A DNA stretch of 64,000 nt from contig OZ242010.1 of assembly GCA_965204745.1 (NCBI GenBank), positions 3,104,001-3,168,000 on the forward strand, given 5' to 3'. Of the stretch, positions 11,968 through 32,051 are shown piece after piece. The DNA is from Candidatus Latescibacterota bacterium (GTDB lineage: Bacteria; Latescibacterota; UBA2968). The translations under genes and the position numbers were made by a program. Under the pieces are notes generated by a model. That model ran no database searches. It was given only the letters and a program-made list of their open reading frames with translations, and was not told the origin of the DNA. Each line of letters opens with the position of its first letter. The first letter of the stretch is position 1.

Positions 11968-13429
11968 GCGGCCCAACATCCTGTACATCATGACCGACGA
12001 CCACGGCACCGGGGCATTGCGTTGCTACGGCAGTCGGATCAACCAAACCCCCAATCTGGACCGCATCGCCCACGGAGGCACGCGCCTGGACAAGTGTTAC
12101 GTCACCTACTCCCTGTGTTCGCCAAGCCGCGCATCCATCTTGACCGGGAAATACGCCCACCTGCACGGGCAGACGTCGATTGGCGGGAATATCTTCGACG
12201 GGTCCCAGCAAACCTTTCCCCAGTTGTTGCAGGCGGCGGGCTACCAGACCGCGATTGTCGGCAAGTGGCACTTGCACAGCATCCCGACCGGGTTTGACCA
12301 TTACAGCGTGATGTGGGGGCAAGGCGCGTATTTTGACCCGAAGTTCATCGAACCCAGCGCGCATGGCCCGGTGTGGAAAGAGAGCCGCGGGTATTCGACG
12401 GACTTGGTGGTTGACAAGTGCTTGGATTGGCTGGCGGGATGCGCGCTTGACAAACCCTTTCTGCTGTTGTGCCATTTCAAGTCGCCCCACTACAACTGGG
12501 AGCCGGACGAAAAGCACGAGGCGATGTTTCAGGACGAGACGATCCCGGAACCCGAGACCTTTGACCACGCGTTTGGAGACAGTCCGGTTCCGCCCGAGGC
12601 ATTGCAGGTCAAGCTGGAAACCGTGCATGAACAATGGAATATCACGCATTGGGACGAGATGCCCGCAGGGTTGTCGATAGCAGAGCAGAAACGCCGGAAC
12701 TACCAGTACTTCATCAAGGACTACCTGCGCTGTGTGGCATCCGTGGATGATAATGTCGGGCGGCTTTTGGATTATTTGGATGAGCGAGGGTTGACCGACA
12801 ATACGGTTGTGGTCTATACCTCTGACAATGGGATGTTTCAGGGCGAACACGGTTGGGTGGATAAGAAGATGATGTTCGAGGAGAGCCTGCGCGTTCCGTT
12901 TTTGATCCGGTATCCCGGTGAAATCGTAGCCGGGTCGCATGCGGATGCTCTGGCGATCAACCTCGACTACGCGCCGACATTGTTGGAGTACGCGGGGCAA
13001 TCCGTGCCGGCGGATATCCAAGGGCGGAGCCTGTTGCCCGTGCTGAGCGGGAACGCGCCAGCGGATTGGCGCACCGCGTTCTACTACCAGCATTTTGACA
13101 TCCACTCAGATGGCGAGTTGGCAAATTGCGGCGTCCGCACCGAGGAGTTCAAGTTGATCTGGTACAACCACAATTACGACCACTACCAACTGTTCGATTT
13201 GAAAAACGATCCCAGCGAGACGCGAGACGTATCCGAAGACCCCGAATACGCCTCAACCGCGCGCGACATGAAAGCCTTGCTGCAATCAGAACGCGCCAAG
13301 GCGGGCTTGACGGACGCGCTGGAAGATCGAATTTTCAACAGCGAAAACATCCCCCAAACCCGCAACCAGATGAACGCGCTGTTGGCGATGATAGACGCGA
13401 ATACCCGGAAGGCGGAAGGGAGACAGTGA
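11957..13429 (+). CDS. Sulfatase (formylglycine-dependent)
   Basis: PNILYIMTDD, CSPSR signature, GKWHL, SDNG..GEHG. Confidence 0.92.
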   Translation: MAARRPNILYIMTDDHGTGALRCYGSRINQTPNLDRIAHGGTRLDKCYVTYSLCSPSRASILTGKYAHLHGQTSIGGNIFDGSQQTFPQLLQAAGYQTAIVGKWHLHSIPTGFDHYSVMWGQGAYFDPKFIEPSAHGPVWKESRGYSTDLVVDKCLDWLAGCALDKPFLLLCHFKSPHYNWEPDEKHEAMFQDETIPEPETFDHAFGDSPVPPEALQVKLETVHEQWNITHWDEMPAGLSIAEQKRRNYQYFIKDYLRCVASVDDNVGRLLDYLDERGLTDNTVVVYTSDNGMFQGEHGWVDKKMMFEESLRVPFLIRYPGEIVAGSHADALAINLDYAPTLLEYAGQSVPADIQGRSLLPVLSGNAPADWRTAFYYQHFDIHSDGELANCGVRTEEFKLIWYNHNYDHYQLFDLKNDPSETRDVSEDPEYASTARDMKALLQSERAKAGLTDALEDRIFNSENIPQTRNQMNALLAMIDANTRKAEGRQ

Positions 13430-13447
13430 TGACGCAGATAAACCGAT

Positions 13448-14001
13448 AAGGCGTTTGGTCATTTGATGGCTTAGGTTGCTCTGATGGCATTGACCGAGGG
13501 GACCTATCCCCCGGCCCCTTTCCTACGAGGAAAGGGGAGTAAAGCTCCTTTGATGGCTTATATCTCTGGTTGCTCGGATGGCATTGACCGAGGGCATAAA
13601 GCGATTAAAAATCCCTCATCAATACCCTCGCAAAACCGCTCACCGTTCCCCCCTTCCTCGCAGGAAGGGGGGTTAGGGGGGTAGGTCCCGATATGGCGTT
13701 GACCGAGGGCATAAAGCGATTAAAAATCCCTCATCAATACCCTCGCAAAACCGCTCACAGTTCCCCCCTTCCTCACAGGAAGGGGGGTTAGGGGGGTAGG
13801 TCCCGATATGGCATTGACCGAGGGCATAAAGCGATTAAAAATCCCTCACACCATCCCTCGCAAAACCCATTCGCGTTCCCCCCTTCCTCAAAGGCACAGG
13901 CGTAGCCTACAACGAAGCGAAGCGAGTAACGGGGGTTAGGGGGGCAGGTCCCGATAAGGAGCGACTATTCCAGTTTCTCAAACCGAGAGCATATTCTGCG
14001 A
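13448..14001. repeat. MITE/REP cluster with three tandem ~115-bp units (13578, 13693, 13808), homologous to 43693-44121
   Basis: Units contain TTCCCCCTTCCTCGCAGGAAGGGGG hairpins; tail GATAAGGAGCGACT..TTTCTCAAACCGAGAGCATATTCTGCGATA is shared with 44006-44056. Confidence 0.85.
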
Positions 14002-14008
14002 TAAGGAG

Positions 14009-14983
14009 ATGACGATGCTCACCCCCAAGCAGTGCGAATCGTATCGGCGAGATGGCTACCTCTTGGCCCCTGACCTTTTCTCAAAAGACCGACTTCTGCC
14101 AGCCCTTGAAGTCGCAGAACAAAATGCTTATGGCAAATGCTTTGAAGCCTTTAATGCGGAATTGGACGCCGATCCAGAACTCGAGGAGACCTTGACCCGA
14201 CCGACGGGGCGGCGCAGCTTTGGCGGGCCTCGGGCGCGGTTTCACGACATTCCGACCGGTGTCGATGCCATTGATCGGATCATCGAACACGAACCGTTTT
14301 TAGACGCGCTAGCGCAACTCTTGGACACCCCGGACATGCACTACCACCACGGCTTTGTGTACGTCCGCAGCGGGCGTTTGGACCGAGGAACGCCCAAAGA
14401 GCCTTGGGCCGGCTTCCACATCGACTGGGCCAAACCCTTGCTCCCTCCGCATCCAGAATGGCAACGCTACGGTCATATCCAAGCCTGGGTTTATCTGACC
14501 GACAACGACGCGGATTGCGCCCCCGTGCGCGTGTTGCCCGGCGCGCATCGCAAAATGGGCGACCTCATCCGCGACCCAATCGGCACCGAGCACAACTCAT
14601 ATCGCTTTGCCGACATTCGCAATCTTCCGCACAAATTTGAACCGGTTACCGCAACCGGAAAAGCGGGCACCGTACTCTTTTACAGTTCGCACACCCCGCA
14701 TTCGCCACAGCCATTTGCCAACCCGCGCAAACAACGCGCCGTACTCTTTTTCGCAGTGGGACGCAGAGACACCAGCACTTGGACGCTCACGGAAAAGAGA
14801 GACATTCGAGAACGCCAACGCCTGCGCCCCTTCTTGACAAAAACCACAGCGCGAGTTCGCAGCCTCTTTGGCTGGCCCAAACCCGGCGACGCCTTTTACA
14901 CCTCGGAGGCCCTGCACCTCATTCAAAACGCCTATCCAGAAATGGACCTCAGTCCATATCACAAGGAAAGGATTGCCAAGTGA
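14009..14983 (+). CDS. PhyH family dioxygenase
   Basis: YRRDGYL, GFHID, PGAH, distal His. Confidence 0.8.
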   Translation: MTMLTPKQCESYRRDGYLLAPDLFSKDRLLPALEVAEQNAYGKCFEAFNAELDADPELEETLTRPTGRRSFGGPRARFHDIPTGVDAIDRIIEHEPFLDALAQLLDTPDMHYHHGFVYVRSGRLDRGTPKEPWAGFHIDWAKPLLPPHPEWQRYGHIQAWVYLTDNDADCAPVRVLPGAHRKMGDLIRDPIGTEHNSYRFADIRNLPHKFEPVTATGKAGTVLFYSSHTPHSPQPFANPRKQRAVLFFAVGRRDTSTWTLTEKRDIRERQRLRPFLTKTTARVRSLFGWPKPGDAFYTSEALHLIQNAYPEMDLSPYHKERIAK

Positions 14984-15070
14984 AAAATGCCAACCTCCGG
15001 TACAGACAAGTTCATCTAAATTTTCACACCTCGGAACACTGCCCAAATGTCGGCGGGAAGTTTGACGAGG
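14899..15070 (+). repeat. Left copy of 172-bp direct repeat (phyH 3' end + glycosidase 5' end)
   Basis: Matches 20818-20989 with 7 mismatches counted by eye. Confidence 0.95.
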
Positions 15071-15222
15071 CGTGGGATTTTTCAGAAGGGTTGGCGCCTG
15101 TGAAAATCGGTGGCAAGTGGGGGTTTGGATGGGTTGAAGGTGGCAAGTATGGGTTTATCAACCGAGCGGGTGATGTCGTTATCAATCCGCAATTTGACTC
15201 TGCGGGGTCTTTTTCCAAATGA
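14980..15222 (+). pseudogene. Chimeric ORF: first ~29 codons of the GH151-like gene fused in frame to WG-repeat fragments
   Basis: MKNANLRYRQVHLNFHTSEHCPNVGGKFDE|AWDFSEGLAPVKIGGKWGF...GKYGFINRAGDVVINPQFDSAGSFSK*. Confidence 0.75.
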
Positions 15223-15234
15223 TCGCGGGTTTCT

Positions 15235-15260
15235 GGGCGACGCCTATTCTAAAGTCGCCC
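15235..15260. repeat. Palindromic cassette-boundary motif, copy 1
   Basis: GGGCGAC-GCCTATTCTAAA-GTCGCCC. Confidence 0.9.
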
Positions 15261-15525
15261 CTATTTTTAAGAAAGGAGTGGGTGTGGCGGAAAAGCAGAA
15301 GGATTTGAGGTCTGATATAAAATTAGACCAGTGGAAAAAAGTTGTTGATTTTTATGATTTATGCAACAATATTTTCTTTATCGCACTTGCTTTTGTTTTT
15401 GGACTCAGTAAAGCATCAGGTTGGTCAGTGTTATGGACGGGATGGACTCCTGAGATAGTGGGTAAAGATTGGGAGGAATTGGTAGCATTTGTAGGGTATT
15501 GGTTTGGTGTTTCTCATTTTGGAGG

Positions 15526-16987
15526 AGATGTCGTGTATTTGATGTTTCGTTGACTATTGTTAAACATTGTTGGCTATGCTTGATTGGAAGGAGGTGGGCT
15601 TTGTTGCCCTATTGGAGCAGTTACGTAGCCGGGAAGAGTCGTGCGTTGTGGTTGCCTGGCGATTCGTCGTTGGCGGTGTTAGAGGGCTGGCAGAGCAAGA
15701 CGGGTGCGGCGTCGTGGTTTTCTGTGGCGCAGAGCATGGTGCGGAAGCACCGTGCGAAAAGTCTGTTCTGTCCTTTTGCCATCGGTTCTCTCGTTAGCAC
15801 GGCGAGCAACAAAGCCCTTGTGACGAAGGCGCGGAAGGTGCGTATCTCTCTGTCGGCTGATCAGCGTGCGCTGGTGAAGCATTGGATGGCTGGCAGTCGG
15901 TGGTGGTATAACAAGGCCGTCGAGCTGTACCGTGCAGGCTTCAAAGTGTCGGAGTATGACCTGCGTCGTATTGTCCGTGCGGTCAGTCCCAAGTGGTTTG
16001 CGGATGTTCCGAGCAAGATTCTGTGCGGTGCGATAGCCGATGCTCACCGGGCCAATCAAGCCGTATGGCGTAAGCGAAAGACAGGAGAAAAAGCAGCGTT
16101 GCATTATCGTAGCCGTAAGAATCCTATTCAATCCTTGTCGTTGTGCAATGTGGCGTGGAACAAGGATCGGTCAACGATCTATCCACTCAGTCTGGGACAA
16201 ATCCGCTTATCCCGCCCGGTTCCGGAAGCCCCGAAGGATGGGCGGCTTGTTGTTCATCAGGGCCGGTACTATGTGACCGTGCCCTATTCGAGTCCACGGC
16301 GCGTAGCCGAGAGCCAAGGGCGCGTCGTGGCACTCGATCCTGGTATTCGTCGTTTCTTGACGTTCTATTCTGAAACGGATTGTGGTAAAATTGGCGAAGG
16401 TGATTTTGGTCGCATCCAGCGGTTGTGTGCTCACCTGGATAGTTTGATTGGTCGTATGGTGAAAGCGTGCGGCTTTCTCAAGGTGCGCCTGAAGCGCGCC
16501 ATCGAGCGCCTGCGCTGGCGCATCCGCGACCTCATCGATGAACTTCACAAGCAGGCCGCACGCTGGCTTGTGGACAACTACGATGTCATCCTACTGCCGA
16601 CCTTCGAGACGAGCAAGATGGTGCAACGCGGCAAGCGTCGCCTTCGCCGCAAGTCTGTCCGCTCAATGTTGACTTTCGCCCATTATCGCTTCAAGCAATT
16701 CCTCAAGCACAAGGCTTTCGAGACCGGCAAGTTGGTCTTAGATGTGAATGAGGCATACACGTCCAAAACAGTCAGTTGGACAGGCGAGATTGTGAAGAAC
16801 TTGGGCGGAGCGAAAGTCATCCGTAGCAGAATGGATGGCCATACCATGGATCGAGATATCAATGGCGCACGGGGTATTTTTCTCCGTGCTTTGGGCGATA
16901 CACCCAAGTTGCGTGATTGCCTGGCGTAACTTGCACTGGTTGAACCACTATTGAAAGGTCAATAATGGTCAACAGAAAGGTATCAGG
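15526..16987 (+). mobile_element. Non-autonomous IS607-family element (tnpA largely deleted, tnpB intact)
   Basis: Left junction GAGG|AGAT and right end TCAACAGAAAGGTATCAGG are shared with the element at 30257-32046; tnpA remnant at 15567-15797. Confidence 0.8.
15601..16929 (+). CDS. tnpB: TnpB RNA-guided nuclease (IS607 type)
   Basis: RuvC motifs VVALDPG, NEAYTSKT, DRDINGARGI; TTG start 15601 after AGGAGG (inferred). Confidence 0.88.
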   Translation: MLPYWSSYVAGKSRALWLPGDSSLAVLEGWQSKTGAASWFSVAQSMVRKHRAKSLFCPFAIGSLVSTASNKALVTKARKVRISLSADQRALVKHWMAGSRWWYNKAVELYRAGFKVSEYDLRRIVRAVSPKWFADVPSKILCGAIADAHRANQAVWRKRKTGEKAALHYRSRKNPIQSLSLCNVAWNKDRSTIYPLSLGQIRLSRPVPEAPKDGRLVVHQGRYYVTVPYSSPRRVAESQGRVVALDPGIRRFLTFYSETDCGKIGEGDFGRIQRLCAHLDSLIGRMVKACGFLKVRLKRAIERLRWRIRDLIDELHKQAARWLVDNYDVILLPTFETSKMVQRGKRRLRRKSVRSMLTFAHYRFKQFLKHKAFETGKLVLDVNEAYTSKTVSWTGEIVKNLGGAKVIRSRMDGHTMDRDINGARGIFLRALGDTPKLRDCLA

Positions 16988-17188
16988 TGGAATTATGTAT
17001 TTTTTTGACTTCTTGTCTAACCGGCGAGAAAACCGTGTAGAGAGACTGCGCGAAGAGGCGCGAGAGGCGGAGCGTCAGGATTTGCGACGGGGGTTGGAGA
17101 AGGAGTTTGCGGGTGATCAGGGAGGTATGGAAAAGATCGAGAAGGTTTTTAATGGACGTTAACAGGTTGTAATGATGTGTATTTAGAG

Positions 17189-17237
17189 AATATCCTCTCA
17201 GGTGGGTTTTCTGTTGTCCATCTGGGGGGTATTTTTT
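17189..17237 (+). terminator. Probable intrinsic terminator after cassette A
   Basis: AATATCCTCTCAGGTGGG...TCCATCTGGGGGGTATT stem plus T run. Confidence 0.55.
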
Positions 17238-17257
17238 AATAGGGGATTATTCCTGGT

Positions 17258-17374
17258 TTTGGAGAAGAAGCCTTGGCGCGGGTGAAAATCGGTGCCATCT
17301 TTGGGCATATCAACCCGAAAGACGAGATCATTATCAACCCCCAATTTGACGATGCGGGGGATTTTTCCAAATGA
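17258..17374 (+). pseudogene. Start-less WG-repeat fragment
   Basis: FGEEALARVKIGAIFGHINPKDEIIINPQFDDAGDFSK*; in-frame TAG at 17240 and no start codon. Confidence 0.7.
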
Positions 17375-17386
17375 TCGCGGGTTTCT

Positions 17387-17412
17387 GGGCGACGCCTATT
17401 CTAAAGTCGCCC
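17387..17412. repeat. Palindromic cassette-boundary motif, copy 2
   Basis: Identical to copy 1. Confidence 0.9.
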
Positions 17413-17751
17413 ACAATTTCACAGGATTAGGGAGATATTTTTATGGCAATAACGACAAGAGGGAGTAAGATCGAATTTGATAGGGCTATCGGAGAAGTGA
17501 AAAATGACGAGTCTCTGTATATTGCCCAAGAGAAATCCGCTGAGTCAGGTTTTGATGGATATAGACTTGTGCATAAGGATTATGATAGGAAGTCTGATGG
17601 TTTGTTGTTTCTCACTGATGGCAAGAATTTTAGGACATGGGTCAATGATCCTAGTGAAGTGGAGTTGTTGGTGTATGAGATGTTTATGAGGGATAATAGA
17701 GAAATTATTAGAACTCCACAGATTAGCATCCCTTCAAAGACTATTCCTGTT

Positions 17752-18737
17752 AATGCGAATTAAGAGTAGAAAGCGAGTAAGAAGCAAGCCGCGGTCAATC
17801 GCCCAAAGACATGAACGAGTAAGCCCTCATAGGATCGTACCCGAGACGCCATCGAGATGTTCGTCTTTCGTTCAATCCAACTGAACAAGGCCTCAATCGG
17901 CTGTCGTATGCTCGAAACCGCCCGAGAATAGTCTTTTTCGGCTTCGGTCAGGCTTTCTTGTCCCTTCTTGCGCTTCACCGGCGTCTCGAAGATCAGGTTC
18001 TGCTGTTTGCTAAGCGTGTCTTTTAAGGGCTGATCGGCGTAGATTTTATCGCCGTAGAGGTGTCCATCACGCAAAACGGGTAAGACTTGTCGCAAAGCGG
18101 TCAGGTCATGCTCTGCTGCACCTGTCAAGCCGATGTACTCTGCTTTCGGGAGGCCGTTCTCACGGTCTTGTGCGACAATGTGCAGTTTGGTGCCGTAATA
18201 CCACATCTTTTTGGAAGCGCAGCGGCCTTTGTTGGCCAGTTGTTCTTCGGCCACACACGCCTGACCGCTGCGTGCCGATTGTGCCATGACAATCGGCATG
18301 GAATCCACCAAGTAGGTGTGTTCAGAGAGATCGGTTGCGGGACTGTCCTTTTGGATTTGTTCAATCAATGGCGCGAAGACCACACACAAGCGGTTCAACC
18401 GCTGGATATAGCCTGCATAAGTGGGCAGATGGGGAAACCAGTCGGAAAGATGATCCTTGGTATAGGTATAAATCGCCTTGATCTGCGTGTGCTGTTGCAT
18501 GATCCCAAACAAATAGATCGTCAGCACTTCTTCATCTGTGAAGGTCGGCGTATCGTTATTGCTCATGCGTTCCGTATAAAACCACAGATGCTTTTGGTCA
18601 TACTGCTGACAAATATAGACATACAAGTGAATGAGTTTATCTTGCCAATCCATCGCGTGCTCCTTCCTTTAAGGGTGAAATGACTGAGCCCTCAAGAAAA
18701 GACAAGTACGCGATGGATTCAACTCTTAATTCGCATT
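17752..18737 (-). mobile_element. IS982-family insertion sequence
   Basis: Perfect 16-bp terminal IRs AATGCGAATTAAGAGT / ACTCTTAATTCGCATT; target duplication GTT (or TGTTA if each end is 1 bp shorter). Confidence 0.85.
17760..18653 (-). CDS. IS982-family DDE transposase
   Basis: FTDEEVLTIYLFG, LVDSMPI, YYGTKLH, GDKIY, RQPIEALF. Confidence 0.85.
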   Translation of the reverse strand: MDWQDKLIHLYVYICQQYDQKHLWFYTERMSNNDTPTFTDEEVLTIYLFGIMQQHTQIKAIYTYTKDHLSDWFPHLPTYAGYIQRLNRLCVVFAPLIEQIQKDSPATDLSEHTYLVDSMPIVMAQSARSGQACVAEEQLANKGRCASKKMWYYGTKLHIVAQDRENGLPKAEYIGLTGAAEHDLTALRQVLPVLRDGHLYGDKIYADQPLKDTLSKQQNLIFETPVKRKKGQESLTEAEKDYSRAVSSIRQPIEALFSWIERKTNISMASRVRSYEGLLVHVFGRLTAACFLLAFYS

Positions 18738-18843
18738 GTTAATAAGAAAGGAAAAATTGTAAGTGTTTTCAAAGCCATTTTTAAGGTTTTCCCTTCTTTG
18801 TTTCGTTTTTTAGGTGTAGGGAAATAGTGTACGGTAAGGCCAC

Positions 18844-18869
18844 GGGCGACGCCTCTTTCAAAGTCGCCC
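18844..18869. repeat. Palindromic cassette-boundary motif, copy 3 (variant core)
   Basis: GGGCGAC-GCCTCTTTCAAA-GTCGCCC preceded by GTAAGGCCAC. Confidence 0.85.
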
Positions 18870-18987
18870 CATTTTTTTATTTTGCAGTAAGCGTTGTAAG
18901 CGTTGATTCTGTCGCCTGGTGTTATCCGTATTGGGCGATCTCGTTTGCTATGGGTTTGGTGCGTCTTTGATGCAGAATAAGGGCTTG

Positions 18988-19012
18988 TGGGGCGTGCCTG
19001 ACAAACGCCCCA
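18988..19012. repeat. Degenerate motif copy (3b)
   Basis: TGGGGCGT-GCCTGACAA-ACGCCCCA followed by ATTTCACA(A)GGA, essentially the same downstream context as copy 2. Confidence 0.5.
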
Positions 19013-19031
19013 ATTTCACAAGGAGAGGGAT

Positions 19032-20066
19032 ATGAGATTTTTTACAGTGGTGGCAATCGCAGTGTTCGCAGTGTTGGCAACAGCGGGTATCTCACACGGT
19101 TACGTGAACGGGTGGGAGAAGTGCATGGTCAATGAAGAAGAGTGGTATATTGATTGTGTTTTGATCGTTCCGATTCCTTTGAGTATGTATGACAGGAGTC
19201 CTTTCGATTATGGGGCTTTACATTATGAGGGGTTTGTTCATATACGTGAAGCGTATGATGGAGGCGAGAGACTACCTTCATACAGACCGTTGGAAGTTGT
19301 TAAAGGTCTTCGTTTTTATGAACATCAAGACCACACAGGTTCTGGACATCGTCGGTATTTAACTTTCAAGCCTGTGTTCAACAGTGACGGATACACTTCC
19401 GTGACAGACTACGAAGGAAATTACCATCGAGATATCAAGTGCGTTGAGATCGAAGAAGTGTCGGAGGTGGTCAGACCAGGACCAGGCGAAGACCTTGAGT
19501 TTTATTGTAAGAAAGACCGCCTTGTTGACAAGTTCAAGCCTTTGTATGAACAGAGAACTCCAGATACCGTTCATAATACGAACAACGTCTATGAAGGAAT
19601 GGTTTATTTAAGTCGCATTCAACGAGGTTTCACGCCTGACACTGTTGGGCGAAATCCTGTCATCAAGATTCTGACAAATAACAGGAACGGGAAATCTCTT
19701 GTCGCTATTGATCCAACCGTTTTTTACAAACGAGAAGCTGTCGGCGATAAATACGGTATGATGAGTCTATTCTCGCGGTTTAATGGAGGAGACAACCCTC
19801 AACACAATGTTTATACTCTGGAGAGTTTTATCGAGATGTCTGAAGCGGAGTATATGAGATTCAGAATGGTGTTCAGGCTCTACGACAAACGCGCTTGGCA
19901 CATGGTCGGTCAGACCGCCGCGCCCATACCAGAACCAACTCCGATAGATACAACTCTCACTGGAGATTTGAACGGCGACGGAGTTGTCAACATTGCGGAC
20001 TTCCTGATCCTTGCCGAGTGGTTTGGTTGCGAAACAGGTCAAAGTCCACCCAACTGCGAAAAATGA
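19032..20066 (+). CDS. Secreted hypothetical protein with C-terminal dockerin/EF-hand-like motif (cassette C)
   Basis: Signal peptide, Pro/Thr linker, GDLNGDGVVNIADFLILAEWFG; SD AGGAG. Confidence 0.75.
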   Translation: MRFFTVVAIAVFAVLATAGISHGYVNGWEKCMVNEEEWYIDCVLIVPIPLSMYDRSPFDYGALHYEGFVHIREAYDGGERLPSYRPLEVVKGLRFYEHQDHTGSGHRRYLTFKPVFNSDGYTSVTDYEGNYHRDIKCVEIEEVSEVVRPGPGEDLEFYCKKDRLVDKFKPLYEQRTPDTVHNTNNVYEGMVYLSRIQRGFTPDTVGRNPVIKILTNNRNGKSLVAIDPTVFYKREAVGDKYGMMSLFSRFNGGDNPQHNVYTLESFIEMSEAEYMRFRMVFRLYDKRAWHMVGQTAAPIPEPTPIDTTLTGDLNGDGVVNIADFLILAEWFGCETGQSPPNCEK

Positions 20067-20261
20067 AAATGACACACAATCCTCCCCGTTCTCCGCTCGG
20101 TGATGCAACACGGGATTGACCTGTCGGCTGTTTACAGTTGCTACGGCCGGTGTTGAACCCGACGATACGAAAATTTTTGGTCAATTGACAAAAAATTCGT
20201 CCATTTTACGGCTTTATGTTTTGAGCGCGTGCTGATCGAGGGGTGAGTCAGTAAAGGCCAC

Positions 20262-20287
20262 GGGCGACGCCTATTCTAAATTCGCCC
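20262..20287. repeat. Palindromic cassette-boundary motif, copy 4
   Basis: GGGCGAC-GCCTATTCTAAA-TTCGCCC preceded by GTAAAGGCCAC. Confidence 0.85.
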
Positions 20288-20306
20288 CATTTTTTTTGAG
20301 GCAGCT

Positions 20307-20489
20307 ATGTTGAAGTATCTGTTGGCAGTGGTGATTTTGATGCTCGCAACACTCCTCGCTCCGCGTCCTATTTTTGGAGAAGCCGCATTGCCGCGGGTGA
20401 AAATCGGTGGCAAGTATGGGTTTATCAATAAGGTCGGCGAGATCGTTATCAAACCGCAATTTGACGATGCGGGGTCTTTTTCCAAATGA
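20307..20489 (+). CDS. Mini-protein: signal peptide plus a single WG repeat (cassette D)
   Basis: MLKYLLAVVILMLATLLA..RVKIGGKYGFINKVGEIVIKPQFDDAGSFSK*; GAGG SD. Confidence 0.55.
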   Translation: MLKYLLAVVILMLATLLAPRPIFGEAALPRVKIGGKYGFINKVGEIVIKPQFDDAGSFSK

Positions 20490-20501
20490 TCGCGGGTTTC
20501 T

Positions 20502-20527
20502 GGGCGACGCCTATTCTAAAGTCGCCC
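20502..20527. repeat. Palindromic cassette-boundary motif, copy 5
   Basis: Identical to copy 1. Confidence 0.9.
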
Positions 20528-20548
20528 ATTTTTTACAAGGAGCAGAAT

Positions 20549-20797
20549 ATGCGTCACCGAATTTTGTCAACAGGCTTGTGTATGACCGCGCTCACCGTGC
20601 TTGTCTTTGTGGTCTATCGGGTCGCGGTGCAACCCCATGCCCAAGGTAGCGCGACCACAGGGAAATTTCCCCGATTGCTGGACAGCGTGCGAAATATACA
20701 CAAGGTTGGGTTGACAACCTTTGAAGGAAAGACCGTAAGACGCCTGTTGGGGCGAATAATCATTCTCCCCAACATGAGGGCGCAGTCTTGTCGATAG
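20549..20797 (+). CDS. Small hypothetical protein with N-terminal hydrophobic segment (cassette E, possibly degraded)
   Basis: AAGGAG then ATG 20549; MRHRILSTGLCMTALTVLVFVVY. Confidence 0.4.
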   Translation: MRHRILSTGLCMTALTVLVFVVYRVAVQPHAQGSATTGKFPRLLDSVRNIHKVGLTTFEGKTVRRLLGRIIILPNMRAQSCR

Positions 20798-20817
20798 CAC
20801 GACCTACGCTGAAGTGT

Positions 20818-20989
20818 CACCTCGGAGGCCCTGCACCTCATTCAAAACGCTTACCCAGAAATGGACCTCAGTCCATATCACAACGAAAGGATTGCCAAGT
20901 GAAAAATGCCAACCTCCGGTACAGACAAGTTCATCTGGATTTTCACACCTCGGAACACTGCCCGAATGTCGGCGGGAAGTTCGACGAGG
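20818..20989 (+). repeat. Right copy of 172-bp direct repeat
   Basis: Matches 14899-15070. Confidence 0.95.
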
Positions 20990-22887
20990 ATCAGTTCATC
21001 GGCACCCTGCGAAAAGGGCATGTGGATTCCGTGACGATCTTTGCCCAGTGCCATCACGGGTGGTGCTATTACCCCACGAAAACGGATATGCAGCACCCCA
21101 ACTTGCAAACCGATCTGGTCGGTCGGATGCTGGCCGCCGCGAAACAGGCCGACATCAACATGCCCGTGTACATCACCGTGCAATGGCACGAAAAAGCCGC
21201 ACGCGAACACCCCGAATGGCGCGCACGAAGGCCCGATGGCGGGTACCTGGGGCGGCCCGACAAACACCCCCATACGCCTTTGCCCCACGGCGGCTGGTAT
21301 CGCTTGTGTTGCAACACGCCCTACCTGGACGCGAGCGTGTTGCCCGTGTTGACCGAAGTGATGGAACTGTACGCGCCCTCGGGCATTTTTCTCGACATTA
21401 CCGGCGAATACGAATGCACATGCGATTGGTGCGTGGCGAGTATGAAAGAGAAAGGGCTGGATCCAAACCGCGCTGCGGATCGGGCGATTCACGCACGGGA
21501 TGTGTACAAGGAGTATTTGACCAAGACCACGGACATCGTTTGGAGTCGCAATCCGGATGCGACGATTTATCACAATGGGAGCGACAAAAAGGGCCGCCAC
21601 GACTTGTATCCCTACTGGTCGCACCACGAGATCGAATCGCTGCCGACCGGGATGTGGGGCTACAATCACTTTCCGACCAATGCGCGGTATTTCACCCATT
21701 TGCCCGATTGCAATGTGATCGCGCAAACCGGCAAGTTCCACCGGATGTGGGGCGAGTTTGGCGGCTTCAAAAATCCGGTCGCCTTGGAATACGAGGTCGG
21801 GCAGATCATTTCATTGAATTGCCGCTGCATGGTGGGCGATCAACTCCATCCAGAAGGCGAGATGGATGAAGAGACCTATCGCATCATCGGTTCGGCGTAT
21901 CAGCGCGTTGAAGAACGCGAGCCATGGCTGGTGGGGGCCGAGCATGTGGTGGATGTGGGCATTTTGGCCCCTTCGGCCGTGCATAAGAACCCGGCGTTGG
22001 AAGACAGCGAAGTGGGCGCGGGCCTGATGCTGATGGAAAACCAAATTCCGTTTTTGATGCTGGACGAGACGATGGATTTATCGCCCTATCAACTGCTGAT
22101 TTTGCCCGATAGCGTGCGCGTGGATGTCGCGCTGAAAGCAAAGCTCGATGCGTTTTTGGCGGATGGCGGCAAGTTGTTGTCCTCTGGCGAGAGCGGCTTG
22201 GATCCCGATGGCATGGGTTTTGTGTACGATATCGGCGCGGATTATGTCGGGCCATCTCCCCATGATGTGGAATACGTGGTGGTCGGGGACGAGATCGCCG
22301 CGAATTTGGTGCGGACCCCGTTCTTGGTGTACGAATCTGGCGTGGCGACAAAGGCGACGGATGGCGACGTGTTGGCGGAAGCGTGGAAACCGTATTTTAA
22401 CCGGACCTACGGCGCGTTCTGCTCCCACCGGAACACGCCGTTTGAGGGCGCTGCGGGTTGGCCCGCGGCGATTCGCAAGGGCAATGTCATTCACATTGCA
22501 CAACCGATTTTTCGAGTCTATGACGATCAGGGCATGCAGTTGCACCGCGATTTGGTGAAGAATTGTCTGGACTTGCTCTACGATGATCCCTTGTTGCAGG
22601 TGTCCCTGCCGTCGTGTGGCCGCGCAACTGTGACGCGGCAACCGCGAGCGGGAAATCGGCTGATCGTGCATTTGATGTACGCCAACCCCATCAAGCGGGG
22701 CGATACAGAGGTGATCGAAGATATCATTCCCCTGTATGGCGTTGCGGTCTCCGTAAAAACGGATCGCGCCGTGTCTCGCGTGTCTCTCGCGCCGGAAAAT
22801 GAGGACCTCGATTTTGAGATTGCCAACGGCCGCGTGTCCTTTGTCGTACCCAAGGTCGAGATGAATCAACTCGTGGCGATTGAATAG
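20899..22887 (+). CDS. GH151-like alpha-L-fucosidase / GHL6 glycosidase with beta-galactosidase trimerisation-like domain
   Basis: RQVHLDFHTSE, CHHGWCYYPT, ESLPTG.WGY, TGKFHRMWGEFGGFK. Confidence 0.75.
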   Translation: MKNANLRYRQVHLDFHTSEHCPNVGGKFDEDQFIGTLRKGHVDSVTIFAQCHHGWCYYPTKTDMQHPNLQTDLVGRMLAAAKQADINMPVYITVQWHEKAAREHPEWRARRPDGGYLGRPDKHPHTPLPHGGWYRLCCNTPYLDASVLPVLTEVMELYAPSGIFLDITGEYECTCDWCVASMKEKGLDPNRAADRAIHARDVYKEYLTKTTDIVWSRNPDATIYHNGSDKKGRHDLYPYWSHHEIESLPTGMWGYNHFPTNARYFTHLPDCNVIAQTGKFHRMWGEFGGFKNPVALEYEVGQIISLNCRCMVGDQLHPEGEMDEETYRIIGSAYQRVEEREPWLVGAEHVVDVGILAPSAVHKNPALEDSEVGAGLMLMENQIPFLMLDETMDLSPYQLLILPDSVRVDVALKAKLDAFLADGGKLLSSGESGLDPDGMGFVYDIGADYVGPSPHDVEYVVVGDEIAANLVRTPFLVYESGVATKATDGDVLAEAWKPYFNRTYGAFCSHRNTPFEGAAGWPAAIRKGNVIHIAQPIFRVYDDQGMQLHRDLVKNCLDLLYDDPLLQVSLPSCGRATVTRQPRAGNRLIVHLMYANPIKRGDTEVIEDIIPLYGVAVSVKTDRAVSRVSLAPENEDLDFEIANGRVSFVVPKVEMNQLVAIE

Positions 22888-22966
22888 GGCTTCTTCCCTT
22901 TTGTGTTTCTGTGCCGCTCGTGGCTTTTGTGTTTCTGTGCCTTTTGTGGCTAAAAAGGAGATCACC

Positions 22967-23176
22967 ATGCAGACCAAACTCACGTTGCAGATGGATGATG
23001 AATTGATCGCACGGGCCAAAGCCCATGCAAAGAAGCGCGGAAAGTCGGTCTCGCAACTCGTTGCAGATTATTTTCGCATTCTGGAAAAAGTGGAACAAAA
23101 ACCGCCACCGAAAAAAAAATACGGCCCGATTACAGAGTCCTTGAGGGGGGCATTGCGCGGGGCAAAATCGGTTTGA
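22967..23176 (+). CDS. DUF6364-like antitoxin; 3' end abuts a MITE fragment and no toxin is present
   Basis: MQTKLTLQMDDELIARAKAHAKKRGKSVSQLVADYF..PITESLRG; MITE/REP piece at 23170-23225. Confidence 0.65.
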   Translation: MQTKLTLQMDDELIARAKAHAKKRGKSVSQLVADYFRILEKVEQKPPPKKKYGPITESLRGALRGAKSV

Positions 23177-30315: not shown

Positions 30316-30891
30316 ATGCCTTATGTAAATACTCGCAAAGCGGTTGCTTTGCTCGGTGTTCATCCGAATACGTTGCGTAAGTGGGCGAATGACGGTCGGA
30401 TTGAGCATATTCGCAGTCTAGGCGGACGGAGACTTTACAATGTCGATGCGTTCTTGCGGGAAGAAGTTGGCGTTGCCGTTGTGTGCTATGCACGGGTTAG
30501 CAGTGATGCCCAAAAAGACGACTTGCGAGGGCAAGTTGCACTCTTGCGATCCCGTTATCCCGGCGCAGAGATCGTCAAAGACATTGGCGGGGGCCTCAAC
30601 TAAAAGCGGAAGGGACTTGTCGCCCTACTGGAACGCTTACACAGCGGAGAAAAGTTGCGAATTGTGGTTGCCCACAAAGACCGCCTTGCACGGTTCGGCT
30701 TTGAACTTGTTGACTGGCTGGCAAAGCAAAACGGGGGCGAGGTCGTGGTTCTCGACGAGTCAAAGTGTCGTCCAGAACAAGAACTCACACAGGATATTTT
30801 ATCCCTTCTCGATACGTTCTCTTGCAGGCTGTCCGGCCTCCGCAAGTACCGTGACAAAATCAAGGAAGATAAGAATCTATCCGAACGCTGA
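30316..30891 (+). pseudogene. tnpA: IS607 serine recombinase TnpA with premature stop (TAA 30601)
   Basis: MerR-like HTH (LGVHPNTLRKW), YARVSS, GGGLN*KRKG, DRLARFGFEL all in one frame. Confidence 0.85.
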
Positions 30892-31993
30892 TCAGCGCGC
30901 AAAGTTCAGGCATTGGATGGTCGCTACCCGCTGGTGGTATAACGAGGCTGTGTCATTGTACCGTGCGGGATTTTCTTTGTCTGAATACGATATGCGACGT
31001 GTTGTCCGTGCGGTGAGTCCTGCATGGTTTGCCGATGTGCCGAGCAAGATTCTTTGCGGTGCGGTCGCCGATGCTTACAAGGCAAACCAGGCGGTCTGGC
31101 GTAAGCGTAAAGCATTCGAGAAGAAAGGGATAAAGCGGAAAGTGCTCTTGCAGTTCCGTAGTCGTAAAGCACCTATCCAGTCCTTGTATTTGTGCCATGT
31201 GGCTTGGAATAAGGCATTGACGACCTTTTATCCTCTTAGCCTTGGCAATGTGCGTTTGTCTGAGCCCTTGTCAGTTGTTCCGAAGGATGGCCGTTTGGTC
31301 AGTTACAATGGCCGGTACTCTGTGACCGTGCCTCATTCAAGTCCACGGCACGTAGCCGAGAACCAAGGGCGTGTCGTGGCGCTTGATCCTGGTATTCGCA
31401 GTTTCTTGACGTTCTTTTCTGAAACAGATTGCGGTAAGATTGGCGAAGGTGATTTTGGTCGTATTCAGCGTTTGTGTATTCATCTTGACAGCTTGATCGG
31501 TCGCATGACAAAGGCCATCGGCTTTCGCAAGGTGCGTTTGAAGCGTGCCTGCCATCGCATGCGGTGGCGCATCCGAGACTTGATCGATGAACTGCACAAA
31601 CAGACTGCGCGCTGGCTGGTGGACAACTACGATGTGATTCTGTTGCCCACGTTTGAGACGACCGAGATGGTTGTGCGCGGTAAGCGGTGCCTTCGCCGTA
31701 AGTCTGTCCGCTCAATGTTGACTTTTGCCCATTATCGCTTCAAGCAGTTTCTCAAGCACAAGGCGTTTGAAACTGGCAAGTTGGTCTTGGATGTGAACGA
31801 GGCTTACACATCCAAGACAGTCAGTTGGACAGGTGAGATTGTAAAAAACTTGGGCGGAGCGAAAGTCATTCGTAGCAGAAAAGATGGTCATACCATGGAT
31901 CGAGATATAAACGGCGCACGGGGTATTTTTCTCCGTGCTTTGGTGGATACACCCAAGTTGCGGAACTGTTTGGATGCAACTTGCACTGGTTGA
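30617..31993 (+). CDS. tnpB: TnpB RNA-guided nuclease (IS607 type)
   Basis: KIRIYP, VVALDPG, NEAYTSKT, DRDINGARGI; TTG start inferred by alignment with the other copy. Confidence 0.88.
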   Translation: MSPYWNAYTAEKSCELWLPTKTALHGSALNLLTGWQSKTGARSWFSTSQSVVQNKNSHRIFYPFSIRSLAGCPASASTVTKSRKIRIYPNADQRAKFRHWMVATRWWYNEAVSLYRAGFSLSEYDMRRVVRAVSPAWFADVPSKILCGAVADAYKANQAVWRKRKAFEKKGIKRKVLLQFRSRKAPIQSLYLCHVAWNKALTTFYPLSLGNVRLSEPLSVVPKDGRLVSYNGRYSVTVPHSSPRHVAENQGRVVALDPGIRSFLTFFSETDCGKIGEGDFGRIQRLCIHLDSLIGRMTKAIGFRKVRLKRACHRMRWRIRDLIDELHKQTARWLVDNYDVILLPTFETTEMVVRGKRCLRRKSVRSMLTFAHYRFKQFLKHKAFETGKLVLDVNEAYTSKTVSWTGEIVKNLGGAKVIRSRKDGHTMDRDINGARGIFLRALVDTPKLRNCLDATCTG

Positions 31994-32051
31994 ACACTTA
32001 TTGATTTGCTCACGCTGTTAATAAGTGTCAACAGAAAGGTATCAGGCGCAG

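What the first reader, a model, noticed from the sequence alone, without database searches (positions are those of the whole stretch)
15235..20527. Candidate new gene-cassette array delimited by a 28-bp dif-like palindrome
Seen: five copies of GGGCGAC-N12-GTCGCCC (15235, 17387, 18844, 20262, 20502) and a degenerate sixth (18988). Copies 1, 2, 3b, 4 and 5 sit ~20-30 bp upstream of the start of an unrelated, AT-richer gene, all on the + strand. Copy 3 closes cassette B 16 bp after its stop. The consensus TGGGCGACGCC-TATTCT-AAAGTCGCCCA reads as 11-6-11, the geometry of Xer/dif and other tyrosine-recombinase sites, but the sequence is not dif or attC. Flanks are mixed and matched. Left flanks are either WG-tail+TGATCGCGGGTTTCT (1, 2, 5) or GTAA(A)GGCCAC (3, 4). 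Right flanks are either ATTTTT (1, 3, 4, 5) or CAATTTCACA(A)GGA (2, 3b). Crossover inside the site would produce this pattern. Inference: an integron/pdif-like cassette system whose recombinase acts in trans. Alternative: the motif is a reused terminator hairpin, since several copies have T tails.
Basis: partly seen in the sequence, partly recalled or inferred. Interest (0 to 1): 0.85.

Follow-up and report, generated by a model that had tools for sequence, protein, structure and literature searches.

The report
Lineage-specific hairpin repeat at gene junctions
A 26-base hairpin found only in this sponge-symbiont genome sits at the joints between unrelated genes and marks where gene pieces have been swapped, but nothing shows it belongs to an integron-like or dif-like cassette machine.

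Summary
The 26-nt hairpin H1 (GGGCGAC-N12-GTCGCCC) is at all five stated places. There are 6 matches against 0.68 expected by chance.

The genome is a 5.48-Mb Candidatus Latescibacterota MAG. It holds 13 H1 copies, all intergenic and all pointing the same way as the downstream gene. H1 was not found in 40 relatives, in 185,579 species genomes or in JGI metagenome contigs.

The "sixth copy" belongs to a second hairpin family, H3b. It has 6 copies, always close to an H1.

H1 and H3b lie inside islands that the two closest species lack. Those species have no H1 at the empty sites. The islands also carry IS607-family and IS982 elements.

Homology between copies stops at the hairpin. H1 is better conserved than its flanks, 94.6% against 83%.

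The only tyrosine recombinases are XerD and a XerC-like protein. There is no IntI and no Y1 transposase. Cassette order is the same in contigs from three other studies.

Best reading: a REP-like or terminator-like hairpin module that acts as a recombination breakpoint. The integron/pdif reading is not supported, but it is not excluded.

The parts
14899..15070 (+). Left copy of a 172-bp direct repeat (3' end of the PhyH gene plus the first 30 codons of the glycoside-hydrolase-like (GH-like) gene). With the right copy it brackets the inserted island.
   Evidence: 96% identical to 20818-20989; in G016 and G018 the PhyH gene abuts the GH-like gene directly.
14980..15222 (+). Remnant fusion ORF: the first 30 codons of the GH-like gene joined to the last WG repeats of a WG-repeat gene.
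   Evidence: WG_beta_rep, E 5e-18. The joint at 15070/15071 was read.
15235..15260 (+). H1 copy 1. Left flank is the WG tail plus TGATCGCGGGTTTCT.
15284..15553 (+). Small orphan membrane-like ORF, the first gene of block A (15274-17241). Block A has one paralogous copy, at G000 2874715-2877069.
   Evidence: (no Pfam family).
15526..16984 (+). IS607-family insertion sequence that carries only tnpB. It is absent from this site in other samples.
   Evidence: TnpB; 97% identical copy at G000 754665; joint 15525->16985 in 3 of 4 runs; element ends.
16965..17162 (+). Small orphan ORF of block A, followed by a terminator-like hairpin at 17194-17229.
17251..17376 (+). WG-repeat gene fragment without a start codon. 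It is the 3' part of a mini-WG cassette like the one at 20307-20489.
   Evidence: (85% identical to 20366-20528).
17387..17412 (+). H1 copy 2.
17443..18828 (+). ORF B, an orphan at 39% GC, interrupted by IS982. Without the IS it reads 134 aa and stops 16 nt before H1 copy 3.
   Evidence: not found in 40 relatives.
17752..18738 (-). IS982-family insertion sequence with 20-nt inverted ends. It has many copies in the genome and is absent here in other samples.
   Evidence: (I2); joint 17747->18737 in 2 of 4 runs.
18844..18869 (+). H1 copy 3, the loop variant GCCTCTTTCAAA.
18870..18988 (+). Conserved leader of about 120-130 nt between H1 and H3b. It is repeated at 4 other places in the genome.
18989..19011 (+).
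19032..20066 (+). Gene C: secreted orphan protein with a weak dockerin-like C-terminal match (below Pfam's cut-off); 45% GC.
   Evidence: not found in 40 relatives or in JGI metagenome contigs.
20262..20287 (+). H1 copy 4, with an uncompensated mismatch in the 3' arm.
   Evidence: weaker fold, -9.6 kcal/mol.
20307..20489 (+). Mini WG-repeat lipoprotein gene (60 aa). It is an internally deleted relative of the 361-aa WG gene that H1 flanks at G000 4211633-4212718.
20502..20527 (+). H1 copy 5.
20549..20797 (+). 5' fragment (homology to about 20694) of a gene of the large secreted 'MRK' family (named here after its N-terminal residues MRK; CARDB and dockerin domains).
20693..20816 (+). Remnant of the right end of another TnpB-type IS. 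It abuts the right copy of the 172-bp repeat.
   Evidence: three full copies elsewhere in the genome.
20818..20989 (+). Right copy of the 172-bp direct repeat.
20899..22887 (+). Intact native GH-like gene downstream of the island.

Best explanation
H1 is a low-copy intergenic stem-loop module found, so far, only in this lineage. It has a 7-bp GC stem and a conserved 12-nt loop, and it is usually followed by a T-run and a short leader that carries the ribosome-binding site.

It lies between co-directional genes inside species-specific, IS-ridden islands. Those islands hold secreted, eukaryote-like repeat-protein genes and orphan genes.

I read it as a repeat of the REP-like / terminator-like kind. 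At the RNA level it probably ends or insulates the upstream transcript. This step is inferred.

At the DNA level it has repeatedly served as the breakpoint at which gene modules were exchanged. That the joints lie at the hairpin is shown. The likely route is short-homology ectopic recombination, gene conversion or template switching at the hairpin. The enzymology is inferred.

Such exchange yields tandem, cassette-like arrays without a dedicated integrase.
For: Copy number and range.
- 13 copies in the 5.48-Mb genome, 9 of them with the identical 26-mer.
- All are intergenic and co-oriented with the downstream gene. In 10 of 13 the start codon lies 19-32 nt away.
- H1 was found in 0 of 40 relatives at <=3 mismatches.
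- There were 0 exact matches to an IUPAC pattern covering both loop variants in genome contigs and in metagenome contigs.

Other hairpin families.
- The genome holds several others. One REP-like palindrome has well over 100 exact copies.
- A 38-nt hairpin, HX, follows other WG genes. It has 9 copies here and occurs in 14 of 20 congeners.

H1 as a breakpoint.
- The WG tail + H1 occurs 4 times with 4 different right flanks.
- The tail of an unnamed upstream ORF (called X here) + H1 occurs 3 times with 3 different right flanks.
- H1 + the start of an MRK-family gene occurs 4 times with 3 different left flanks.
- Homology ends within 0-15 nt of the hairpin in these pairs.

Conservation. In the 17 pairs that share a flank, H1 is 94.6% identical against 83% for the flanks. 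Eight pairs with flanks only 74-84% identical have H1 at 26/26.

Fold. -13.7 kcal/mol as RNA. At least 6 T in an 8-nt window right after the stem in 8 of 13 copies.

No dedicated machinery nearby.
- Only XerD and a XerC-like tyrosine recombinase, and they are far from every copy.
- No Y1 transposase.
- The IS607 ends carry no H1.
- The nearest IS110 copies, by the coordinates, are 17-19 kb away.

The islands are insertions without H1 at their edges or at the empty sites of relatives.

MRK-family paralogs without H1 keep the ancestral 5' UTR seen in G016. H1 plus its leader therefore replaced a UTR right up to the start codon.
Against: - The 12-nt loop is far longer than in typical intrinsic terminators. 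The terminator scan, which allows loops of 3-8 nt, did not flag any H1.
- The loop is conserved, and it comes in just two discrete forms (10 and 3 copies), each copied unchanged. A plain terminator does not need that.
- 4 of 13 copies have no T-run.
- H1 keeps a fixed distance to the downstream start codon, not to the upstream stop codon (13 to about 350 nt). That fits a 5' element or a cassette edge better than a terminator.
- 26-40 nt of identity is near the lower limit for RecA-type recombination (recalled), yet at least seven exchanges must have happened.
- Higher conservation than the coding flanks could also mean a sequence-specific protein partner.
- No expression data were available.
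Confidence: 0.47

Rival explanations
1. H1 (with H3b) is the site of a dedicated site-specific recombination system that moves or shuffles gene cassettes. The recombinase is encoded elsewhere in the genome.
For: - Flanks are mosaic, with breakpoints at the hairpin.
- All copies are direct and co-oriented with promoterless-looking, compact, unrelated and AT-richer genes.
- Copies cluster in arrays.
- A complete WG gene is bounded by H1 on both sides in two different arrays.
- H1 is more conserved than its flanks, loop included.
- The loop variant travels with the right flank and is independent of the left flank. That would fit a crossover in or near the 5' arm.
- The 26-mer can be read as 12-2-12 with an invariant central TT in both loop variants (read). 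I recall that as the geometry of serine-invertase sites.
- Six IS607-type serine recombinase genes exist. One is 0.9 kb from H1 at 2877486 and one is about 10 kb from the window array.
Against: - No integron integrase; only XerD and a XerC-like protein.
- No recombinase gene is a consistent neighbour of the 9 loci.
- The serine recombinases belong to IS607 elements, and those ends carry no H1.
- The relatives' empty sites have no H1, and island edges lie 120-980 nt from the nearest hairpin. The islands therefore did not enter by H1 x H1 exchange.
- Array order is identical in contigs from three other studies.
- The stem changes seen (3 copies) are uncompensated, so nothing shows selection on structure.
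Confidence: 0.17
2. H1 is a miniature non-autonomous mobile element (REP- or MITE-like, about 45-55 nt with its consensus flanks). It inserted independently between genes.
For: - It is species-specific, and 9 of 13 copies share the identical 26-mer.
- Consensus bases extend about 16 nt to the left (AGTAAGCAGCAAAGGCCAC-like) in 8 of 13 copies.
- The genome is rich in other short palindromic repeat families and in IS elements, including 57 IS110-family transposase matches. As I recall, IS110-family elements target palindromes.
Against: - No Y1/RAYT transposase.
- No target-site duplications are visible.
- All 13 copies have one orientation relative to the genes, across at least 7 unrelated right flanks.
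- The left arm differs between classes: TGATCGCGGGTTTCT against AAAGGCCAC.
- Insertion alone cannot give sets that share the left flank and sets that share the right flank. Exchange at the hairpin is still needed.
Confidence: 0.1
3. H1 and H3b are cis-regulatory 5'-UTR elements (a stability stem-loop, a translational switch or a protein-binding site). They would co-regulate a set of secreted host-interaction proteins.
For: - The distance to the start codon is fixed at 19-32 nt.
- H1 and H3b are interchangeable in front of the same two leader types, AAnTTTCACAAGGAG and AAATT..TCTCTTATTGGAGG.
- The G016 paralogs carry a different hairpin at the same position, about 33 nt before the ATG.
- Predicted folds pair the left flank with the Shine-Dalgarno region in some copies.
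- Downstream genes are mostly secreted LDL-receptor class B (YWTD-type), CARDB, dockerin, LRR and WG proteins.
Against: - No Rfam family matches at E<=1.
- There is no covariation.
- H1 also precedes gene fragments and unrelated orphans.
- It is not found in congeners, which nonetheless carry the MRK and WG gene families that H1 adjoins here.
- Regulation would not by itself explain the mosaic junctions.
- No expression data.
Confidence: 0.15

Closest known systems
REP/BIME elements and their RAYT (Y1) transposases
   Same: Short GC-stem intergenic palindromes repeated within one genome, specific to a lineage. As I recall, they are known as join-points for duplications and as mRNA 3' stabilisers. 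Only the listing abstract of PMC3333891 was seen.
   Different: H1 has only 13 copies. All have one orientation relative to the genes. The loop is a conserved 12 nt. No RAYT/Y1 gene is in the genome. H1 occurs as singlets, not as inverted doublets.
Integron attC cassette arrays, including attC clusters without an integrase (CALINs)
   Same: Direct arrays of compact, co-oriented, unrelated, AT-richer genes. Each joint carries an imperfect palindrome just upstream of the next ribosome-binding site. The arrays are absent from sister species.
   Different: No IntI. H1 is 26 nt and nearly identical in every copy, whereas attC sites are 57-141 nt, vary in sequence and carry RYYYAAC/GTTRRRY cores (recalled). 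The arrays did not insert at a resident site. No variation in cassette order was seen.
Xer/dif sites and pdif modules of Acinetobacter plasmids
   Same: The length is close to 28 bp and the site has partial dyad symmetry. XerC-like and XerD genes are present.
   Different: Symmetry is in the outer 7 bp, not next to the central region. All copies are direct, whereas pdif modules are bounded by sites in inverse orientation (recalled). No dif-like sequence similarity was found. No Xer dependence has been shown.
Rho-independent terminators and intercistronic stabiliser hairpins
   Same: A GC stem followed by a T-run in 8 of 13 copies. It lies after the stop codon of a co-oriented gene or gene remnant. 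The fold is stable at -13.7 kcal/mol.
   Different: The 12-nt loop is long and conserved. Four copies have no T-run. The position is fixed relative to the downstream start codon.

Membership tests
Integron (IntI + attC cassettes) | An integron integrase (IntI) gene next to the array, or at least present in the genome | tested here: not met
   PF00589 gives 2 matches in the whole genome. NCBIfam names them XerD (360 bits, cut-off 329.6) and XerC-like (319 bits). The integron-integrase models score 68-146 bits against cut-offs of 265-435.
Integron (IntI + attC cassettes) | attC architecture: 57-141 nt, R''-L''...L'-R' boxes with a GTTRRRY core, sequence varying between cassettes | tested here: not met
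   H1 is 26 nt and 9 of 13 copies are identical. No GTTRRRY follows the stem. The attC consensus is recalled; no attC model was run.
Integron (IntI + attC cassettes) | Cassette content and order vary among strains | tested here: inconclusive
   Contigs of X11, X12 and X13 (three studies) show the same neighbours across H1-1, H1-2/3, H3b/H1-4 and H1-4/5. Only the two IS elements differ. These strains are nearly identical to the window, and contigs drop rare variants.
Xer/dif and pdif modules | 28-bp site: two 11-bp arms that are most symmetric next to a 6-bp centre | tested here: not met
   Only the outer 7 bp are complementary. The inner arm bases are GCC against AAA. The dif geometry is recalled.
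Xer/dif and pdif modules | Modules bounded by sites in inverse orientation | tested here: not met
   All 5 window copies are on the + strand in direct orientation. The pdif rule is recalled.
Xer/dif and pdif modules | XerC and XerD present in the host | tested here: met
REP/BIME | Short GC-rich intergenic palindrome repeated in the genome | tested here: met
   13 copies, all intergenic.
REP/BIME | High copy number (tens to hundreds) and an associated RAYT (Y1) gene | tested here: not met
   13 copies. PF01797 gives 0 matches in the genome, and the control search rang in 6 of 14 known genomes.
Intrinsic terminator | GC-rich stem directly followed by a U-tract | tested here: inconclusive
   At least 6 T of 8 in 8 of 13 copies, 5 in 1 copy and 3 in 4 copies. 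The stem folds at -13.7 kcal/mol.
Intrinsic terminator | Short loop (3-8 nt) | tested here: not met
   The loop is 12 nt. The consensus terminator scan listed none of the H1 copies.
Intrinsic terminator | Transcripts end at the site in vivo | not testable with these tools
   No RNA run was laid. The single look-up of sequencing runs and read-laying runs went to DNA contigs.
IS200/IS605/IS607 element ends | The hairpin lies at the ends of the tnpB-bearing elements | tested here: not met
   The IS boundaries at 15526 and 16984 lie 264 and 400 nt from the nearest H1. An alignment of six IS607-type copies shows no H1-like end.

The most novel reading that the evidence does not exclude
H1 and H3b are the crossover sites of a so far undescribed cassette-shuffling system. 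It would assemble and reshuffle genes for secreted, eukaryote-like host-interaction proteins in a sponge symbiont. The recombinase would not be an integron integrase. One possibility is a serine recombinase acting on a 12-2-12 site with a central TT; another is a structure-specific enzyme acting on the extruded hairpin.
Probability: 0.13. Interest if true: 0.8.

Novelty: new member of a known kind. Interest (0 to 1): 0.42.

Why it matters
Sponge symbionts carry large, fast-changing sets of eukaryote-like repeat proteins, and how those sets are built is poorly understood. Here one short hairpin, restricted to a single species among those searched, marks the joints of reshuffled gene modules. 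It does so in at least three islands that the sister species lack.

If the exchange is ordinary short-homology recombination, this is a clear worked example of small palindromes structuring accessory islands. If a dedicated enzyme is involved, it would be a new cassette system outside the integron family.

Tried and rejected
- Rfam scan of 13000-23000 at E<=1: no match.
- Promoter reading of the loop (TATTCT as a -10 box): the -35 partner is poor in all but two copies, and the loop variant destroys the box (read). Dropped.
- Search for the chromosomal dif with a recalled consensus at <=7 mismatches: one poor hit. The cumulative GC skew is atypical, so the terminus could not be placed. No conclusion.
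- H1 as an IS end: rejected.
- Link between block A and its tnpB: both block copies carry different IS607-family members at the same target site, and the window IS is missing in other samples. The IS is therefore a secondary insertion, not the carrier of the cassette.
- H1-to-H1 joints in Logan contigs: 17413->18876, 17423->18844, 20528->18871 and 20514->18860. They have short sides (21-25 letters where given). 20528->18871 matches the right flank of the paralogous copy at G000 2877486, and the others may likewise come from paralogous loci. They are not counted as excision.
- Parts of the stretch without contig cover in some runs are not used as evidence.
- PHROGs and PADLOC scans of 7 orphan ORFs: only two weak hits, E 0.002 and 0.0003. 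Ignored.
- Gene C in metagenome contigs: none.
- Synteny at 4.298 Mb: the island is too large for clean edges.
- Literature: two full-text searches listed nothing on hairpin-bounded gene modules in Latescibacterota. Only listings and the starts of abstracts were seen, and no paper was read. No supplements were consulted.

Full report
**Observation.** The motif GGGCGAC-N12-GTCGCCC is present at 15235, 17387, 18844 and 20502. At 20262 it has one mismatch. That gives 6 matches at <=2 mismatches against 0.68 expected, and 0 of 100 shuffles reach 6. The extra hit at 7271 has an unrelated loop. I call the 26-mer H1. Its loop is GCCTATTCTAAA in four window copies and GCCTCTTTCAAA in copy 3. The distances to the next start codon (19-30 nt), the two left-flank classes, the two right-flank classes and the lower GC of the enclosed genes all hold (38-49% against 56.5% for the genome). 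The '16 bp after the stop' statement for copy 3 is right once the IS982 insertion at 17752-18738 is read out. Contigs of 2 of 4 public runs carry that empty site. The 'degenerate sixth' copy (18989-19011) is a different hairpin, H3b.

**Genome-wide picture.** The window lies in a single 5.48-Mb contig. Its close relatives are titled Candidatus Latescibacterota MAGs, and the DNA recurs in sponge metagenomes.
- H1 occurs 13 times, and 9 copies share the identical 26-mer. Five are in the window. Two pairs are at 3.24 Mb and 4.21 Mb, and four are single.
- Six neighbour gaps are under 6 kb, and 0 of 100,000 random placements reach that.
- Every copy is intergenic and points the same way as the downstream gene. 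In 10 of 13 the start codon is 19-32 nt away. In the other three a leader of about 120-130 nt and then H3b precede the start.
- H3b has 6 copies, all within 3.4 kb of an H1. Zero of 100,000 random trials match that.
- H1 was not found in 40 relatives, 20 of them in the same genus, at <=3 mismatches. An IUPAC pattern covering both loop variants found nothing in genome contigs (185,579 species) or in JGI metagenome contigs. The leader plus H3b is also missing from the 40 relatives.

**What the window array is.** In the two closest species, G016 and G018, the PhyH gene (14009-14983) directly abuts the glycoside-hydrolase-like (GH-like) gene (20899-22887). The stretch 15071-20817 is therefore an insertion. 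It is bracketed by a 172-bp direct repeat, 96% identical. Its left joint fuses the first 30 codons of the GH-like gene to a WG-repeat tail. Its right edge is a remnant of a TnpB-type IS end. From left to right the insertion contains:
- WG tail, then H1
- block A: a small membrane-like ORF, an IS607-family tnpB-only IS, a small ORF and a terminator-like hairpin
- WG fragment, then H1
- ORF B, split by IS982, then the H1 loop variant
- leader, then H3b
- gene C, then H1
- mini-WG gene, then H1
- a 5' fragment of a gene of the large secreted family that I call MRK, after its N-terminal residues

Both IS elements are missing at these exact sites in contigs of other samples. The joint 15525->16985 is seen in 3 of 4 runs and 17747->18737 in 2 of 4. 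Otherwise the same neighbours are seen across the hairpins in runs from three other studies. ORF B and gene C have no Pfam family over its cut-off (gene C has a weak dockerin-like hit, E 0.002). They also have no PHROGs or PADLOC family and no match in the 40 relatives.

**Other H1 loci.** At 4.21 Mb, G016 has two conserved genes 95 nt apart. This genome has 3.0 kb between them: the tail of an unnamed ORF (called X here), H1, a complete 361-aa WG-repeat gene, H1, a kinase-like gene and H3b. Homology to G016 resumes 22 nt after H3b. At 3.97 Mb a 4.66-kb insertion relative to G016 and G018 carries H1, the leader, H3b and an 821-aa secreted protein with LDL-receptor class B (YWTD-type), CARDB and dockerin domains. 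It lies between tracts of a CAGTTGT heptamer. The 2.29-Mb slot differs in all three species. In none of these cases does the island edge coincide with a hairpin, and the relatives have no H1 at the empty site.

**The hairpin as a junction.** All-against-all comparison of the 13 sites with 1.5-kb flanks gives three sets:
- the WG tail + H1 occurs four times, with four different right flanks
- the X-tail + H1 occurs three times, with three different right flanks
- H1 + the start of an MRK-family gene occurs four times, with three different left flanks

Homology ends 0-15 nt from the hairpin in these pairs. Because left-sharing and right-sharing sets overlap in single copies, several joints must have arisen by exchange at the hairpin, whatever the origin of H1.

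In the 17 pairs that share a flank, H1 is 94.6% identical against 83% for the flanks. Eight pairs with flanks only 74-84% identical have 26/26 in H1. The three stem changes are uncompensated, so there is no covariation. The loop variant goes with the right flank CATTTTTT. It occurs with both left-flank classes.

MRK-family paralogs without H1 keep the 5' UTR seen in nine G016 paralogs, which has its own, different hairpin. H1 plus its leader therefore replaced a UTR right up to the start codon.

**Structure and function.** As RNA, H1 folds to -13.7 kcal/mol. Eight of 13 copies have at least 6 T in 8 nt just after the stem, and four have only 3. The 12-nt loop is outside the range of the terminator scan, which listed no H1. 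Rfam gives nothing.

The genome has several other hairpin repeat families. One is a 38-nt hairpin after other WG genes. It has 9 copies here and is present in 14 of 20 congeners. Reused gene-end hairpins are thus normal in this genus.

**Recombinases.**
- PF00589 finds two genes only, XerD and a XerC-like gene, at 0.68 and 2.80 Mb. Integron-integrase models score far below their cut-offs.
- PF01797 (Y1/RAYT) finds none.
- Six resolvase-domain genes all belong to IS607-type elements. Those ends show no H1. One lies 0.9 kb from H1 at 2877486.
- There are 57 IS110-family matches. By their coordinates, the nearest to an H1 are 17-19 kb away.

**Verdict.** H1 is real, non-random and, among all genomes searched, confined to this species. 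It marks recombination joints in accessory islands. The evidence fits a REP-like or terminator-like hairpin module that spreads with gene modules and is the preferred breakpoint of short-homology exchange (confidence 0.47). A dedicated cassette recombination system is not excluded (0.17). It lacks an integrase, a resident insertion site and any observed variation. A miniature mobile element (0.10) and a 5'-UTR regulator (0.15) remain possible and are not mutually exclusive. I file it as a new member of a known kind. The bolder reading deserves a test with long reads and recombination assays.

Noticed in passing
window 13578-13960: Three tandem 115-nt units that carry the palindrome CCCCCCTTCCTCGCAGGAAGGGGGG. 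With its variants this palindrome has well over 100 exact copies in the genome on both strands, so it is a high-copy REP/MITE-like family.
   Followed up: partly
window 15526-16984 and G000 2874955-2876730: Two different IS607-family members (79% identical) sit at the same target site in the two paralogous copies of block A. The window copy lacks the serine-recombinase gene and is absent in contigs of 3 of 4 other runs.
   Followed up: partly
window about 30478-32004 (G000 3134478-3136004): Another IS607-type element (resolvase domain with one stop codon, plus tnpB) about 10 kb downstream of the array.
   Followed up: no
window 17752-17820 and 18697-18738: The roughly 70-nt and 40-nt ends of the IS982-family element occur alone at more than 70 other places in the genome. 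They look like MITE-type derivatives or solo ends.
   Followed up: no
G000 3969610-3969630, 3974160-3974175 and 4211458-4211478; also G016 and G018 intergenic regions: Tracts of tandem heptamers (CAGTTGT or CAGTGGT) lie at the edges of two species-specific insertions. They also appear next to IS982 ends in other samples. They may be insertion hot spots.
   Followed up: partly
G000 1458791-1472719: Large CRISPR-like array: 192 exact matches to the repeat core, mostly 71-76 bp apart and all on one strand.
   Followed up: partly
G000, whole genome: 57 matches to the IS110-family transposase domain, about 40 of them with identical scores. This points to a recent burst.
   Followed up: no
G000, whole genome: Cumulative GC skew rises almost monotonically, with its minimum at 0.74 Mb and its maximum at 5.47 Mb. 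No ordinary two-replichore pattern is visible.
   Followed up: no
window 20693-20816: Remnant of the right end of a TnpB-type IS (the 3' end of tnpB plus a scaffold-like tail). It abuts the duplicated PhyH tail and has a 25-nt insertion relative to three full copies elsewhere.
   Followed up: partly
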